The notes under the pieces are model-generated. The model was not told the origin of the DNA, searched no databases, and saw only the letters and a list, made by a program, of their open reading frames with translations. Source: a virus. From it: a DNA stretch of 64,000 bases. Shown here piece after piece: positions 6,732-62,998 of the stretch (positions are counted from its first letter, which is position 1; each line of letters opens with the position of its first letter). The stretch is from IMG/VR virus record IMGVR_UViG_3300024581_003792, positions 127,006 through 191,005 of that record; one strand, 5' to 3'. A program made the position numbers and the translations under genes.

Positions 6732-6740
6732 GTGTAATAT
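6732..6740 (+). promoter_or_regulatory. GTGTA-class promoter motif
   Basis: GTG-TAATAT, start codon 7 nt downstream. Confidence 0.6.
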
Positions 6741-6746
6741 AAAATA

Positions 6747-7028
6747 GTGAGCAATAATATTGATCCAGAAAATTTAAATGTTTTTTCCATACCGGAATCT
6801 ATGCTTGAAAAACTCTTTGAGTTTACGGGTGACGCAGATCACAGCAAAGGATTCATCTTGGCTTATGTAGACCAAGAGGGCAAGCCTATGGTTTATACTC
6901 GCAGTCAAAATCAAATTATTGAGATGGGATTGCGCAAAGCTTTGGAAAAATATTTAATTACGTTAGAAGAGGCTGAAAGTATGTATGGGGCAGAAAATGA
7001 TGACCCCGACAATAAAGGTCTTGACTGA
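6747..7028 (+). CDS. Acidic hypothetical protein
   Basis: 93-aa ORF, GTG start, fills the gap before dnaB. Confidence 0.75.
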   Translation: MSNNIDPENLNVFSIPESMLEKLFEFTGDADHSKGFILAYVDQEGKPMVYTRSQNQIIEMGLRKALEKYLITLEEAESMYGAENDDPDNKGLD

Positions 7029-7049
7029 TTCGCTTCTTTCTGATAACAT
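7021..7049 (+). promoter_or_regulatory. Sigma70-type promoter
   Basis: TTGACT-17-TAACAT with extended TG; ATG 7 nt after the -10. Confidence 0.75.
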
Positions 7050-7055
7050 AGCTCA

Positions 7056-8552
7056 ATGATATATTCTCCTGAAGTAGAGAAACAGCTTCTTGCTGGTTTA
7101 TTAAATTACCCAGATAAATATGTAGAGATAGCAATGTTTGTTGGCTCTAAAGATTTTTTCTTTGAACCTCATCAAATTATCTACAGCTTTATAAAGTCTG
7201 ATTACGAAGCGGGAAATCACATAGATGAGATTATACTTTCTGAACGAATTAAACTTTCGGGCATTTCTTTTGAAGACAATATCAATGTAGCTGACTATTT
7301 AAGAGCTTTAAAGCTAAAAAAGTCATCGAAAGAATCTGTAATCGAGTGCGCTAAAGAGCTTTGCAAACTCTCAGCTCGTAGATCTTTATCTAAAACAGGT
7401 CAAGAAATGCAGAATGCAATGAAAAACATTGATCCTTCAAAAAGTTTAAATGAAATCATTGAGTCATGCGATAAAATTTATTCAGCAAATATTGATCTTT
7501 ATGAAAACGGAGAAAACTTTCCTCAAAATATCTATTCGGATATGGAAGAAATCATTGAGCTTCGAGGCAACAACCCTCAAGATAACTTTGGCCCCGTCGG
7601 ACCGCATCCAAGATTACATGAGCTCTACGGTTCTCTTTTGCGCCCAGGAAATATAACTACTATAGTGGCAAGAACTGGTGTTGGTAAAACTCAATTTGTT
7701 ATGGATTTTTGCAATAAAGTTTCGGCGTCTGAAGGCATACCTGTTCTTCATCTAGATAACGGAGAAATGAGTAAGGAAGAATTAATCATGAGGCAATGTT
7801 CATCTCTCTCAGGCGTACCTCTTTCTCTTCTTGAGACGGGTCGCTGGAGAAATGCAGGGCAAGAAGTTGTCGATAAAGTTCGAAGGGTGTGGAATATAGT
7901 AAAAAATTATCAGTTTTATTATCAAAACGTTGGTGGTATGGATTCAGATGGAATCATGCAGTTAGTCAAACATTTTTATTTTGGTCAAGTTCAACGAGGC
8001 AATGAAATGATTCTGTGTTATGACTACATCAAAACTAGCTCAGAAAAAATGGGTAACAAAGCAGAGTATCAAGTGGTCGGAGAAACAGTTGACAAATTCA
8101 AAAGACTAATTCAAAGAGAGATAGTATTTAACGACAAACCTATGATCTCTATGATGACCAGCGTTCAGAGTAATCGGGCTGGAATAACAAATAATAGAAC
8201 CTCAGACAATATTGTTGAAGATGAGAGTATCGTATCGCTATCAGATAGAATTACTCAATTCAGCTCGCATTTACTCTCATTAAGGCAAAAGACTACAGAT
8301 GAATTAGCAGAAGAAGACAATATGTTCGGGACGCATAGATTAACTTGTTTTAAATACAGGCATTTAGGCGACAATGTTCATAGAGCTATACAACCAGTAA
8401 GAATGCCAAATGGAGACTTAAAAAGAAACTTCATTAATTTAAGTTTCGAAAACTTTAATATTACTGAGATTGGAGACCTACAAGACATGGTAGACTCTCA
8501 AGTTGATGTTGGGCTTATTAATGGTCAAGGAGCCTCAGATATTGATATATGA
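7056..8552 (+). CDS. dnaB: Replicative DnaB-family helicase
   Basis: N-terminal EKQLLAGLL domain, Walker A ARTGVGKT, LDNGEMS, Walker B LCYDYI, VQSNR. Confidence 0.9.
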   Translation: MIYSPEVEKQLLAGLLNYPDKYVEIAMFVGSKDFFFEPHQIIYSFIKSDYEAGNHIDEIILSERIKLSGISFEDNINVADYLRALKLKKSSKESVIECAKELCKLSARRSLSKTGQEMQNAMKNIDPSKSLNEIIESCDKIYSANIDLYENGENFPQNIYSDMEEIIELRGNNPQDNFGPVGPHPRLHELYGSLLRPGNITTIVARTGVGKTQFVMDFCNKVSASEGIPVLHLDNGEMSKEELIMRQCSSLSGVPLSLLETGRWRNAGQEVVDKVRRVWNIVKNYQFYYQNVGGMDSDGIMQLVKHFYFGQVQRGNEMILCYDYIKTSSEKMGNKAEYQVVGETVDKFKRLIQREIVFNDKPMISMMTSVQSNRAGITNNRTSDNIVEDESIVSLSDRITQFSSHLLSLRQKTTDELAEEDNMFGTHRLTCFKYRHLGDNVHRAIQPVRMPNGDLKRNFINLSFENFNITEIGDLQDMVDSQVDVGLINGQGASDIDI

Positions 8553-9598
8553 CATCAGATAAGATAAAAGATATTCTGACAAATCTTGGTTATAAACTTA
8601 CTGATTGTGGAAATCATTGGAGAACCAGCGCCTTATACCGAGGCGGAAGCAATCCTACCGCAGTACAAGTCTATAAAGATTCTGGCGTTTGGTTAGATTA
8701 TGTCAAAAACTCTCAAGCGTTACCTCTTGAATCTCTTATACAGGCGACACTTCAGACCAACGACAAAGAGCAAATTAAAAAAATCACAGGAGGCTACGAT
8801 TTTTCCATCAGCAGAACAGAAGTTATCGAGCGCCCTAAACTTACTATGGAAAAAACATACCCAGAATCAATGCTAGACAAATTACTACCTCACTATAAGT
8901 TTTATAACAATAGGGGTATTTCTAGTGAGACCCTCGTGTTTTTTAAAGGTGGACTAGCAACAGAAGGGGCTATGTATCAGCGTTTCGTCTTCCCAATATA
9001 TAACGAAGATGGTCAAATTTATGGGTTTAGTGGTAGAGACATGACTACATCCAACCCCAATCGCCCTAAATGGAAACATATAGGTAAAAAATCCAACTGG
9101 ATTTATCCTTATTATGTGCCACATGATTCATGCAATATTATTCAACAAGCTATGTCTGATAAAGATTTAGTTATATTAGTCGAAAGTATAGGCGACTTAC
9201 TGCAATTGCACGAACAAGGAATTAAAAATGTGTTAGTTACTTTTGGGACATCTTTATCGTCTAAATTATTATGCTTTTTAGTTTCTGCGGGCTGTTCTAA
9301 AATTGTACTATCATTAAACAATGATTCCAATCAAAAACATAACCGAGGAAGAATAGGTTCATTCAAGTCTTATTTAAAATTATTGAATTATTTCCCTCAG
9401 GATGATATTATAATACACCCGCCTACTGAAAAAGATTTTGGCGAAATGAAACAAGAACAATTTCCAGAATGGTTGCAATATCTAGAAACCGGAGCATACA
9501 AAGATGATCAACCGAATTACCAAAAAGAAGTTTTGGATTTAATTGACCAAAAAGAGATACCATCTTCTTTGTACAAAAAAAAGTATTTTGATGCCTGA
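8549..9598 (+). CDS. dnaG: DnaG-type primase (TOPRIM)
   Basis: RFVFPIYNEDGQIYGFSGR, PKWK, ILVESIGD, LSLNND; adjacent to dnaB. Confidence 0.85.
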   Translation: MTSDKIKDILTNLGYKLTDCGNHWRTSALYRGGSNPTAVQVYKDSGVWLDYVKNSQALPLESLIQATLQTNDKEQIKKITGGYDFSISRTEVIERPKLTMEKTYPESMLDKLLPHYKFYNNRGISSETLVFFKGGLATEGAMYQRFVFPIYNEDGQIYGFSGRDMTTSNPNRPKWKHIGKKSNWIYPYYVPHDSCNIIQQAMSDKDLVILVESIGDLLQLHEQGIKNVLVTFGTSLSSKLLCFLVSAGCSKIVLSLNNDSNQKHNRGRIGSFKSYLKLLNYFPQDDIIIHPPTEKDFGEMKQEQFPEWLQYLETGAYKDDQPNYQKEVLDLIDQKEIPSSLYKKKYFDA

Positions 9599-62174: not shown

Positions 62175-62423
62175 ATGATAATCAAAAAAGAGTTAAAGAA
62201 TGCAACCTTTGAGTATAATGAAGAGACCAAGTCTTTTACGTTATCCAATAAGGACACTACCATTGAGTTAAATAAAGTTTATTCATTTGCTTTCATGCGT
62301 TTTGTTGTTCGTATGGCGCAAAGAAATTGGCTGCGCACAAAAAAAAGTGTTGACAAAGTAGTGGAAGATGTAGTAGAATCAGAACATGTCGATCATCCCG
62401 ATCAAATGAAAATTTTTGAATAA
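62175..62423 (+). CDS. Hypothetical protein
   Basis: 82 aa from ATG 62175. Confidence 0.65.
   Translation: MIIKKELKNATFEYNEETKSFTLSNKDTTIELNKVYSFAFMRFVVRMAQRNWLRTKKSVDKVVEDVVESEHVDHPDQMKIFE
62350..62379 (+). promoter_or_regulatory. Internal sigma70-type promoter
   Basis: TTGACA-18-TAGAAT within the 3' end of the upstream gene. Confidence 0.5.
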
Positions 62424-62425
62424 TT

Positions 62426-62605
62426 ATGAATCAGTTAGAAGTAGTATTAGCTAGTGATCACGCCGAGTTTTTTTATACAGACTCAGATGAAGTCGTCCCC
62501 GAAGGCGAACCTGTAGGAGTAGATTGGACACATAATAATGTAGTCGATCTTTATTTGTTTAATAACATCTATCATGAGTTCAAATATGAAGAAGGAGAAT
62601 ACTGA
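62426..62605 (+). CDS. 59-aa acidic protein (below ORF-track cutoff)
   Basis: MNQLEVVLASDHAEFF...FKYEEGEY*; fills the gap exactly. Confidence 0.6.
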   Translation: MNQLEVVLASDHAEFFYTDSDEVVPEGEPVGVDWTHNNVVDLYLFNNIYHEFKYEEGEY

Positions 62606-62834
62606 CAACCCAAAACTATTCGAATATAGAATTAAATATAATGCGGGGGCATATCACTCGATGCAGGATAGCTACCATTATTATAATGCAGAGAACGCTG
62701 AAGATGCTTTAAATTTTCATCTAGCCATGCTAGAAAAGCATGACCTACAGGTGCAAACGCTGTCTGTTGAGAAATATAATCCTTATGCAGACAAATGGGA
62801 AGATGAAAGCACTATTCTGAATCAAGAGGCTTAA
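62586..62834 (+). CDS. Hypothetical protein (start 62574 or 62586)
   Basis: Open frame overlapping both neighbours. Confidence 0.6.
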   Translation: MKKENTDNPKLFEYRIKYNAGAYHSMQDSYHYYNAENAEDALNFHLAMLEKHDLQVQTLSVEKYNPYADKWEDESTILNQEA

Positions 62835-62982
62835 CTATGTATTCCCCGATATGCTGACTAAGTATTTTTATTTGTTTTAATAAAGCCGCCTTTTTCTCTT
62901 TACTTTTTAATTTTTTAGCCTTATCATATAAGTATAAAATATAATCATGGCTAATTTTTTGTTTTATCTCTCCTTTTTTCAT
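62812..62982 (-). CDS. 56-aa basic protein
   Basis: MKKGEIKQKISHDY...; ATG 8 nt after a minus-strand GTGTATAAT. Confidence 0.6.
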   Translation of the reverse strand: MKKGEIKQKISHDYILYLYDKAKKLKSKEKKAALLKQIKILSQHIGEYIVKPLDSE

Positions 62983-62989
62983 AATAAAT

Positions 62990-62998
62990 ATTATACAC
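62990..62998 (-). promoter_or_regulatory. GTGTA-class promoter motif
   Basis: GTG-TATAAT on the minus strand. Confidence 0.6.

What the first reader, a model, noticed from the sequence alone, without database searches (positions are those of the whole stretch)
6732..62998. Second promoter class, GTG-TAnnnn with no -35: candidate phage late promoter
Seen: GTGTA in short intergenic gaps at 6732, 10662, 18797, 28232, 31085, 48240, 49840, 50075, 59150 and on the minus strand at 62998, plus an ATGTA variant at 43268. The start codon follows the hexamer by 6-10 nt in 10 of 11 cases. TG abuts TA directly, unlike the TGnTA geometry of the sigma70 set, and no TTGAC lies at the -35 position. The motif heads the virion transcription units (18813, 28250, 31112) and the second glycan cluster. 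Inference: a short late-promoter signature analogous in role to the T4 TATAAATA promoter. Caveat: a 5-mer occurs by chance and enrichment was not computed.
Basis: partly seen in the sequence, partly recalled or inferred. Interest (0 to 1): 0.65.

Follow-up and report, generated by a model that had tools for sequence, protein, structure and literature searches.

The report
Phage GTGTA promoter abutting start codons
The five-base word GTGTA sits 9-13 bases before the start codons of about a dozen genes in this window, about 30 in the whole 214-kb uncultured marine phage and hundreds in its relatives; it is most likely a one-piece promoter read with a phage-made sigma factor, placed so close to the gene that the message has almost no leader.

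Summary
Observation confirmed, and it is far beyond chance.

- **Enrichment.** GTGTA is not enriched in the window overall (58 found, 78.5 expected). In the 40 nt upstream of ORFs genome-wide it occurs 26 times against 3.8 expected (p=6e-14), with a sharp peak 9-11 nt before the start codon.
- **Conservation.** The same position-locked word recurs in three related contigs and in 80 loci (1.09 Mb) of an uncultured clade. It is kept at orthologous genes while the flanks diverge.
- **No -35 box.** None appears in 114 non-redundant sites, and 1 of 51 short-spaced sites has a Shine-Dalgarno sequence.
- **Internal calibration.** The phage's canonical TTGACA-N17-TAnnnT promoters are equally locked to the ATG, 6-8 nt after the -10 box. 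Both classes therefore predict leaderless mRNAs.
- **Avoidance.** GTGTA is strongly avoided inside genes on both strands, most on the antisense strand (0.42 of expectation, rank 2 of 1024). That fits a DNA-level promoter, not a ribosome signal.
- **Who reads it.** No phage RNA polymerase was found, but three or four sigma-like proteins were. A clade-wide 260-aa ECF-like sigma in a GTGTA-headed operon is the best candidate.

"Late" is too narrow: the class also heads ribonucleotide reductase, replication-adjacent and glycan genes. The closest known system is phiEco32 tAATGTAtA/gp36. This scan had already found the motif on related phage genomes.

The parts
6732..6736 (+). GTGTA element, 10 nt before GTG 6747 (93 aa, upstream of DnaB)
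   Evidence: GTGTA is kept upstream of the orthologue in relatives G001, G003 and G004 while the flanks diverge.
10662..10666 (+). GTGTA element, 11 nt before ATG 10678 (89 aa)
   Evidence: Kept with the same spacing in G001 and G004 (54% aa identity).
16348..16352 (+). It overlaps the DnaE stop codon and lies 11 nt before ATG 16364 of the ClpB-like gene.
   Evidence: GTGTA-N10-ATG is kept in G001 and G002. ClpB/AAA Pfam hits.
18797..18801 (+). GTGTA element, 11 nt before ATG 18813 (1449-aa tail protein)
   Evidence: The G004 orthologue (48% identity) keeps GTGTA at N13.
28232..28236 (+). GTGTA element, 13 nt before ATG 28250 (939 aa)
   Evidence: The G004 orthologue has GTGTA at N9.
31085..31089 (+). 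GTGTA element, 22 nt before ATG 31112 (399 aa). The leader carries an AAGAGG Shine-Dalgarno at 31099-31104.
   Evidence: The orthologues keep GTGTA but change the spacing: N22 in G004, N9 in G003.
43264..43268 (-). ATGTA variant, 9 nt before in-frame ATG 43254. It heads the only long minus-strand gene of the window. Weak.
   Evidence: ATGTA has no positional peak of its own.
48240..48244 (+). GTGTA element, 9 nt before GTG 48254 (76 aa)
   Evidence: Identical in G001.
49840..49844 (+). GTGTA 9 nt before GTG 49854 (66 aa). Ambiguous: it overlaps a 9-bp hairpin plus T run at 49842-49864 that looks like an intrinsic terminator.
   Evidence: The G001 orthologue is only 64% identical.
50075..50079 (+). 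GTGTA element, 13 nt before ATG 50093 (272 aa, head of the second glycan cluster)
59150..59154 (+). GTGTA element, 10 nt before ATG 59165 (236 aa, glycan cluster)
62994..62998 (-). GTGTA element, 11 nt before ATG 62982 (56 aa). It heads a minus-strand unit, back to back with the + strand gene at 63006.
   Evidence: Kept in G001 and G002.
7021..7049 (+). Calibrator: sigma70-type promoter TTGACT-N17-(TGn)TAACAT, 6 nt before ATG 7056 (DnaB). The same leaderless geometry occurs at 4831-4859, 12114-12142 and 38612-38640.
47552..48229 (+). The evidence is weak.
63929..64000 (+). Start of a 181-aa ECF-type sigma gene that runs off the window. It is one of the phage's sigma-like genes.
40729..41096 (+). 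tmRNA gene. It holds the intergenic GTGTA at 40733, which is therefore not a promoter site.
   Evidence: Rfam RF00023, 125.9 bits

Best explanation
GTGTA, flanked by A/T-rich DNA with no G in the next three bases, is the single conserved element of a phage-specific promoter class.

It acts like a -10 element, with TA at about -12/-11 to -10/-9, and has no -35 partner. It is read by host core RNA polymerase carrying a phage-encoded sigma factor. The best candidate is the clade-wide 260-aa ECF-like sigma with a Cys-rich insert (about 45%). The second candidate is the clade-wide 202-aa sigma (about 25%).

Because the start codon lies 9-11 nt after the motif, transcription should begin at or within 1-3 nt of the AUG/GUG, so the mRNAs are leaderless or nearly so. 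Where the spacing is about 20 nt, a Shine-Dalgarno sequence is often present instead.

The class serves middle and late functions. The phage's early and accessory genes use canonical TTGACA-N17-TAnnnT promoters that are themselves mostly leaderless.

Shown here: enrichment, position lock, conservation, lack of a -35 box and of Shine-Dalgarno sequences, avoidance on both strands, and the presence of sigma genes. Inferred: promoter activity, the transcription start site, which sigma reads the motif, and timing.
For: 1. Unbiased k-mer test. GTGTA occurs 26 times vs 3.8 expected in the 40 nt upstream of ORFs, p=6e-14. It peaks sharply at 9-11 nt in this genome (G000) and in relatives G001, G003 and G004.
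2. The only position-locked upstream words are TTGAC(A) at 30-32 nt, GTGTA at 9-11 nt and GAGGA at 7-9 nt. About 23 TTGACA-N17-TAnnnT promoters put the ATG 5-9 nt (mostly 6-8) after the -10 box. The same leaderless logic therefore holds for an unmistakable promoter class. The TA of GTGTA sits within 1 nt of the same register.
3. In 80 loci around homologues of the 260-aa sigma, 177 of 894 GTGTA lie N9-11 before an ORF head. For seven of eight permuted words the figure is 0-10 of 1200-2600; the eighth, AGTGT, scores 79 because it overlaps aGTGTA by one base. Each relative shows its own enrichment.
4. Orthologous footprints: GTGTA is kept while the flanks and even the spacing change.
5. No -35 box in 30 or in 114 sites. 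A Shine-Dalgarno sequence is present in 1 of 51 short-spaced sites and 6 of 18 long-spaced ones.
6. It heads minus-strand units that face a + strand gene and show no TTGAC-type -35 box of their own, at G000 coordinates 7501, 32314, 190003, 192844 and 198969.
7. In 1.3 Mb of coding DNA, sense GTGTA is at 0.60 of the codon-shuffle expectation (rank 16 of 1024). Antisense is at 0.42 (rank 2). One-mismatch variants are near 1.0.
8. No phage RNA polymerase was found. Sigma genes were found. The models resemble ECF sigmas (260 aa) and sigma32/sigmaA-type sigmas (202 aa).
9. The 260-aa sigma sits in a conserved operon [GTGTA]-205aa-120aa-sigma. GTGTA is the nearest upstream signal in 46 of 53 loci.
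10. Four candidate host-lineage MAGs show no excess of GTGTA-N9-11-ATG.
Against: - There are no RNA 5' ends and no biochemistry. Promoter function and the start site rest on geometry and comparison.
- Both conserved sigmas keep a sigma4-like domain, yet no -35 element is seen. phiEco32 gp36 also contacts the -35 region despite having a one-piece consensus (PMC12276001).
- If the 260-aa sigma is made only from GTGTA promoters, something else must start the loop.
- Four window sites use GTG starts, which are poor leaderless starts in E. coli.
- One site (49840) may be a terminator.
- Start codons were inferred from ORFs, although the controls used the same rule.
- Avoidance of a non-palindromic word could also reflect a restriction system.
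Confidence: 0.8

Rival explanations
1. GTGTA is read by host machinery, not a phage sigma. Either the host primary sigma is re-aimed by a phage appropriator (as P23-45 gp39 shifts Thermus polymerase to extended -10 promoters), or a host alternative sigma reads it.
For: The A/T-rich TAwwww after GTG resembles a -10 hexamer, and three sites read GTGTATAAT. Phage factors that switch promoter class are known (PMC3950348, listed).
Against: - TG abuts TA, one base out of register with the TGnTA of this phage's own TTGACA promoters.
- The -7 position is T in only 53% of sites.
- Four candidate host-lineage genomes show no excess of the arrangement.
- The phage and its clade carry their own sigma genes.
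Confidence: 0.1
2. GTGTA is a translation signal: a non-Shine-Dalgarno ribosome-binding or enhancer element on the mRNA, not a promoter.
For: It keeps a fixed distance to the start codon, and these genes lack a Shine-Dalgarno sequence.
Against: - The word is avoided even more strongly on the antisense strand of genes (0.42, rank 2 of 1024). An RNA-level signal would not explain this.
- Orthologues move it from N9 to N22 and add a Shine-Dalgarno sequence.
- It heads divergent units that show no TTGAC-type -35 box of their own.
- It sits further from the start codon than the Shine-Dalgarno word: its last base lies 9-11 nt before the start, against 7-9 nt for GAGGA.
- The canonical promoters show the same lock to the ATG.
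Confidence: 0.04
3. GTGTA marks an RNA processing site: an endonuclease trims polycistronic RNA just upstream of start codons and makes leaderless messages.
For: Many sites lie in short gaps inside co-directional gene arrays with no terminator before them.
Against: - The avoidance on the antisense strand argues against an RNA-level role.
- It occurs at heads of divergent units.
- There is no conserved structure around it.
Confidence: 0.03
4. GTGTA is the promoter of a cryptic phage-encoded RNA polymerase. P23-45 is the precedent: its polymerases are hidden in the tape measure protein and in gp64, and are recognisable only by a DxDxD motif.
For: The phage has a 4460-aa tape measure protein and many large proteins of unknown function. 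The precedent is PMC10770324.
Against: - No PF00940 or PF00623 hit, though the PF00940 control matched in none of the control genomes.
- D.DGD occurs only in calcium-binding-type repeats.
- Among ORFs of 450 aa or more, D.D.D occurs in only six, and not in the tape measure, 2012-, 1716-, 1449-, 1129-, 965- or 957-aa proteins. Five of the six are a glycosyltransferase, DnaE, the tail fibre and two calcium-binding-type repeat proteins; the sixth, a 452-aa protein at G000 58591-59949 (DDSDDD), was not examined.
Confidence: 0.03

Closest known systems
Middle/late promoters of coliphage phiEco32, read by the phage sigma gp36 (consensus tAATGTAtA / AATGTA centred at -11.5; PMC8948821, PMC12276001)
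   Same: - A single conserved element with the TGTA core and no -35 consensus.
- It is used for both middle and late genes.
- Early genes use sigma70-type promoters.
- The transcription start maps 6-8 bp after the 9-mer. That equals the 9-11 nt seen here between GTGTA and the start codon.
- The sigma gene itself belongs to the phage-specific class.
   Different: - The word is GTGTA, not AATGTA. ATGTA shows no positional peak here.
- Neither conserved sigma shows detectable sequence or fold similarity to gp36.
- No gp79-like factor was identified.
- Here the start codon abuts the promoter, giving leaderless messages.
- The host is probably a marine verrucomicrobium, not E. coli.
T4 late promoters (TATAAATA at -10; gp55 with gp33 and the sliding clamp) (from established knowledge)
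   Same: A -35-less, -10-only phage promoter scattered in short gaps in front of many genes.
   Different: - The word is different.
- There is no convincing gp55 homologue. The only hit is a weak phrog_234 match of the 181-aa sigma (E=0.003).
- The class is not restricted to late genes.
- T4 late mRNAs have leaders with Shine-Dalgarno sequences.
ECF (group 4) sigma promoters, e.g. E. coli sigmaE GGAACTT/GTC (PMC6648896) and sigmaW-type CGTA
   Same: - A G-T-core -10 word.
- The candidate 260-aa sigma models as sigma2 plus sigma4. Its best PDB matches are ECF sigmas, including sigmaE region 2 bound to -10 DNA.
- The sigma gene lies behind its own putative promoter, as in ECF autoregulation.
   Different: - The defining conserved -35 element is absent.
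- The sigma carries a Cys-rich insert.
- The TIGR02937 score is below its cut-off (36.2 vs 42.9).
Thermus phage P23-45 middle/late extended -10 promoters (gp39/gp76 switch; PMC3950348, PMC5758890)
   Same: A switch from -35/-10 promoters to a -35-independent class during infection. The upstream part is TG-containing.
   Different: - In P23-45 the host sigmaA reads the promoters after remodelling.
- Here TG is out of the extended -10 register, and phage sigmas are available.

Membership tests
phiEco32-type single-element phage-sigma promoter | One conserved word with a TGTA core near -10 | tested here: met
   GTGTA is invariant. One-mismatch variants show no peak. The position relative to the transcription start is inferred.
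phiEco32-type single-element phage-sigma promoter | No conserved -35 consensus | tested here: met
   Logos of 30 and of 114 sites, plus a k-mer test of -42..-13.
phiEco32-type single-element phage-sigma promoter | Transcription starts 6-8 bp after the element | not testable with these tools
   Only the geometry is available: the start codon lies 9-11 nt after GTGTA. The TTGACA promoters are locked to the ATG in the same way.
phiEco32-type single-element phage-sigma promoter | Read by a gp36-family sigma | tested here: not met
   gp36 does not appear in sequence or profile searches of the PDB. It is absent from the rows listed by the two Foldseek searches (about the best 50 of 235 and of at least 500 matches). 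The sigmas here are a different lineage. Which sigma reads GTGTA is itself untested.
ECF sigma-dependent promoter | Bipartite: a conserved -35 (AAC-type) plus a -10 | tested here: not met
   No -35 information.
ECF sigma-dependent promoter | The sigma gene is preceded by its cognate promoter (autoregulation) | tested here: inconclusive
   GTGTA heads the operon holding the 260-aa sigma in at least 55 of 80 loci. It is the nearest upstream signal in 46 of 53 loci. A cascade from another sigma would give the same picture.
Sigma70 extended -10 promoter (TGnTATAAT) | TG at -15/-14, separated by one base from T-12 A-11, with T at -7 conserved | tested here: not met
   TG abuts TA. The -7 position is T in 53% of sites. 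None of seven window sites checked against the listed sigma70-type matches coincides with one; an eighth, 48240, overlaps two weak 9/12 matches whose -10 box ends only 3 nt before the start codon.
T4 late promoter / gp55 system | TATAAATA at -10 and a gp55-gp33-clamp apparatus | tested here: not met
   The word is different. The only gp55-type signal is a weak phrog_234 hit (E=0.003) of the 181-aa sigma.
Leaderless mRNA genes | No Shine-Dalgarno sequence, and the start codon at the predicted transcript 5' end | tested here: inconclusive
   A Shine-Dalgarno sequence is present in 1 of 51 short-spaced sites, and the geometry fits. No 5'-end data exist.

The most novel reading that the evidence does not exclude
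A large, wholly uncultured clade of marine phages, probably infecting Opitutales/Verrucomicrobiota, runs an almost fully leaderless expression programme. Both the host-type TTGACA promoters and a clade-specific one-piece GTGTA promoter are placed so that transcription starts on the start codon. GTGTA would be read without any -35 element by a new Cys-insert ECF-like sigma that sits in its own regulon. If so, this is a compact and portable promoter/sigma pair. It would also be a natural system showing efficient leaderless translation in a phylum where this has not been studied.
Probability: 0.4. Interest if true: 0.65.

Novelty: new variant of a known kind. Interest (0 to 1): 0.55.

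Why it matters
- **Annotation.** The motif gives a testable transcription map for a widespread uncultured marine phage group. IMG/VR holds more than 585 contigs with the 260-aa sigma. The motif lets annotators fix true start codons and transcription units, for example ATG 16364, 38648 and 43254 in this window.
- **Sigma biology.** A five-base, -35-less promoter tied to a divergent sigma would add a new specificity to the small set of phage sigma/promoter pairs. 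It could serve as an orthogonal expression part.
- **Translation.** Both promoter classes abut the start codon. This suggests that the host, by gene-transfer evidence a marine verrucomicrobium, translates leaderless mRNAs well. That could be tested.
- **Signal strength.** The strong avoidance of the word on both strands of coding DNA shows how potent the signal must be.

Tried and rejected
- **Cultured relatives.** Megablast of the virion region and tblastn of the 939-aa protein and the 260-aa sigma against 50,697 phage records gave no match. The 181-aa sigma gave one weak hit.
- **A -35 element.** Fixed-register logos and a variable-spacing k-mer test found only A/T repeats.
- **A third promoter word.** Position-specific enrichment and inspection of unclassified gaps found nothing convincing.
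- **Assigning the sigma by co-occurrence.** The 260-aa and 202-aa sigmas are both clade-wide and share contigs, so they cannot be separated. The 181-aa sigma has only one relative and was rejected as the general reader.
- **A cryptic RNA polymerase.** Pfam searches, D.DGD and D.D.D scans, and PHROG/Pfam scans of large proteins were all negative. The atlas search of the 2012-aa protein was uninformative.
- **The 'moraphage' paper** (PMC12619734) describes phages with predicted Bacteroidota hosts, and nothing in the passages read tied them to this clade.
- **The generic sigma70/terminator scan.** Sigma70-like matches in 1-40 kb are no more frequent than in shuffles. Terminators do not precede most GTGTA sites.
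- **Similarity to gp36.** It was not found by sequence, profile or fold search.
- **47552 family against the two sigma families.** Profile-profile comparison gave only weak results: E=0.0062 at probability 6% against the 260-aa family, and nothing against the 202-aa family.

Full report
**Setting**

The window is bases 127006-191005 of a 213,830-bp IMG/VR virus record. The record is 35.7% G+C, and about 85% of its genes lie on the + strand. No cultured phage resembles it.

The window holds replication genes: DnaB, a primase-like protein, DnaE and a ClpB-like ATPase. It also holds a block of very large virion-type proteins (18813-38601, tail PHROG hits), a tmRNA, a DUF1501 gene and glycan genes.

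The 'ATGTA variant' lies on the minus strand, 9 nt before an in-frame ATG at 43254.

GTGTA is not common in the window. There are 58 copies against 78.5 expected from dinucleotide shuffles. Its placement is what is extreme:

- In an unbiased count of all 5-mers in the 40 nt upstream of greedy ORF calls over the whole genome, GTGTA occurs 26 times against 3.8 expected (p=6e-14). It is the best non-homopolymer word.
- 20 of 27 sites lie 9-13 nt from the start codon.
- With a start-codon rule applied equally to controls, the histogram peaks at 9-11 nt in this genome (G000) and in three relatives, G001, G003 and G004.
- Sixteen one-mismatch or permuted words show no such peak.

**It is conserved**

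Relatives were found through the 399-aa protein at 31112. Upstream of that gene, contigs at 65% and 54% protein identity keep GTGTA although the flanks are unalignable. The spacing changes from 22 nt to 9 nt and back to 22 nt. The same holds for the orthologues of 6747, 10678, 18813 and 28250.

Each relative shows its own enrichment: 5 vs 0.41, 9 vs 0.99 (top word) and 16 vs 2.5.

Around 80 homologues of a 260-aa sigma factor (53-95% identity, 1.09 Mb), 177 of 894 GTGTA lie 9-11 nt before an ORF head. For seven of eight permuted words the figure is 0-10 of 1200-2600; the eighth, AGTGT, scores 79 because it overlaps aGTGTA by one base. Unrelated phage contigs show nothing.

**What kind of signal it is**

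Four lines of evidence point to a promoter that fires onto the start codon.

1. *Internal calibration.* The only words locked in position upstream of ORF heads are TTGAC(A) at 30-32 nt, GTGTA at 9-11 nt and the Shine-Dalgarno word GAGGA at 7-9 nt.
   - The first belongs to textbook TTGACA-N17-TAnnnT promoters. About 23 of these place the ATG 5-9 nt (mostly 6-8) after the -10 box, exactly where transcription should start.
   - This phage therefore routinely makes leaderless messages from unmistakable promoters.
   - The TA of GTGTA sits within one base of the same register.
2. *No Shine-Dalgarno at short spacing.* Short-spaced sites have one in 1 of 51 cases. Long-spaced sites have one in 6 of 18, for example AAGAGG at 31099.
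3. *Heads of divergent units.* GTGTA heads minus-strand units that face a + strand gene and show no TTGAC-type -35 box of their own. This was also noted by the scan in the next window.
4. *Avoidance on both strands.* In 1.3 Mb of coding DNA of the clade the word is avoided. The sense strand is at 0.60 of the codon-shuffle expectation (rank 16 of 1024). The antisense strand is at 0.42 (rank 2). One-mismatch variants sit near 1.0.
   - An RNA-level signal such as a ribosome site or a cleavage site gives no reason to purge the antisense strand.
   - A potent promoter does.

There is no -35 element in 30 or in 114 non-redundant sites. TG abuts TA, one base out of the TGnTA register used by the phage's own TTGACA promoters. 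The -7 position is T in only 53% of sites.

**Who reads it**

No phage RNA polymerase was detected. I checked the P23-45 precedent of polymerases hidden behind a DxDxD motif (PMC10770324) and found no support for it here.

The genome encodes sigma-70-family proteins of 181, 260 and 202 aa:

- **181-aa sigma.** An ECF type of the Rhodopirellula/Verrucomicrobium kind. It has one relative only, so it cannot explain a clade-wide motif.
- **260-aa sigma.** More than 585 related stretches. It models as sigma2 plus sigma4 with a Cys-rich insert, and its best PDB matches are ECF sigmas.
  - It lies in a conserved operon headed by GTGTA. That is the nearest upstream signal in 46 of 53 loci.
  - This fits ECF-style autoregulation, and phiEco32 gp36 is likewise a middle-gene product.
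  - But it raises a bootstrapping problem.
- **202-aa sigma.** More than 287 related stretches. It resembles sigma32/sigmaA-type factors. In close relatives it follows a TTGACA promoter. It could therefore be the early-made factor that turns GTGTA on.
It has sigma-like language-model neighbours and a weak sigma4/LuxR-type C-terminus, but a narrow distribution.

I put the 260-aa sigma at about 45%, the 202-aa sigma at about 25% and the 47552 protein below 10%.

Four candidate host-lineage genomes show no excess of the arrangement. The DUF1501 gene of the phage is 70-75% identical to genes of Opitutia/Verrucomicrobiota MAGs.

**Is it 'late'?**

Genome-wide, GTGTA heads four kinds of gene:

- the tape measure, a J-like tail fibre, the gene after the large terminase and the window's virion block;
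- the large subunit of ribonucleotide reductase;
- small genes beside the replication genes;
- the sigma operon and the glycan genes.

TTGACA promoters crowd the two genome ends, which hold many small genes, and a few replication genes. 'Phage-specific middle-plus-late class' is therefore the safer label.

**Comparison with known systems**

The nearest precedent is phiEco32. Its middle and late promoters are a single element, tAATGTAtA, with no -35 consensus. The start maps 6-8 bp downstream, and the element is read by the phage sigma gp36 (PMC8948821; PMC12276001).

The TGTA core and the distance to the start match. The word, the sigma lineage and the leaderless design differ. The lead to phiEco32 came from earlier reports of this scan on related genomes, and I checked it in the papers.

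T4 late, ECF and extended -10 promoters each fail a defining feature (see the membership table).

**Verdict**

This is a real, conserved, phage-specific promoter-like signal. It is a new variant of a known strategy, and the scan has already seen it on related genomes. Function, start sites, timing and the cognate sigma remain to be shown.

Noticed in passing
window 40729-41096 (+): A phage-encoded tmRNA (Rfam RF00023, 125.9 bits, full length). ARAGORN did not report it. It lies just upstream of the DUF1501 gene.
   Followed up: partly
window 41104-42384 (+): The DUF1501 protein is 70-75% identical to genes of marine Opitutia/Opitutales/Puniceicoccaceae (Verrucomicrobiota) MAGs, a hint to the host. 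The 94% top hit lies on a 210,818-bp contig binned as a 'Cellvibrionales' MAG (JAYQMT010000004.1). That contig carries many GTGTA-N9-11-ATG sites and is probably a mis-binned relative of this phage.
   Followed up: partly
G000 and relatives, coding DNA: Besides GTGTA/TACAC, the most avoided 5-mers contain ACGT, CCGG or GGWCC. This looks like restriction-site avoidance.
   Followed up: no
window 4831-4859, 7021-7049, 12114-12142, 38612-38640; many more at both genome ends: The canonical TTGACA-N17-TAnnnT promoters, often with TGn, place the start codon 6-8 nt after the -10 box. The host-type promoter class is therefore leaderless too. True starts differ from the longest ORFs, for example ATG 38648 rather than TTG 38612.
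   Followed up: yes
G000 33084-34833 (outside the window; locus L002): A conserved operon: a 205-aa membrane-anchored protein, a 120-aa Zn-ribbon protein, and a 260-aa sigma with an invariant Cys-rich insert (C108, C111, C122, C134). The small Zn protein might be an anti-sigma or co-factor.
   Followed up: partly
window 30642-30658 (+): An internal GTGTA lies 9 nt before an in-frame ATG inside the 939-aa gene. It is kept in close relative L005 and could give a separate 137-aa C-terminal product.
   Followed up: no
window 46006-46029 and 42393-42414: Strong G+C-rich terminator hairpins. The second is bidirectional, between convergent genes. Terminator-like sites are enriched in 40-60 kb (24 vs 11.2 expected).
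   Followed up: no
G000 58554-58581: A bidirectional hairpin whose two stem ends are GTGTA on either strand. The + copy lies 9 nt before ATG 58591, so a terminator and a promoter appear to overlap.
   Followed up: no
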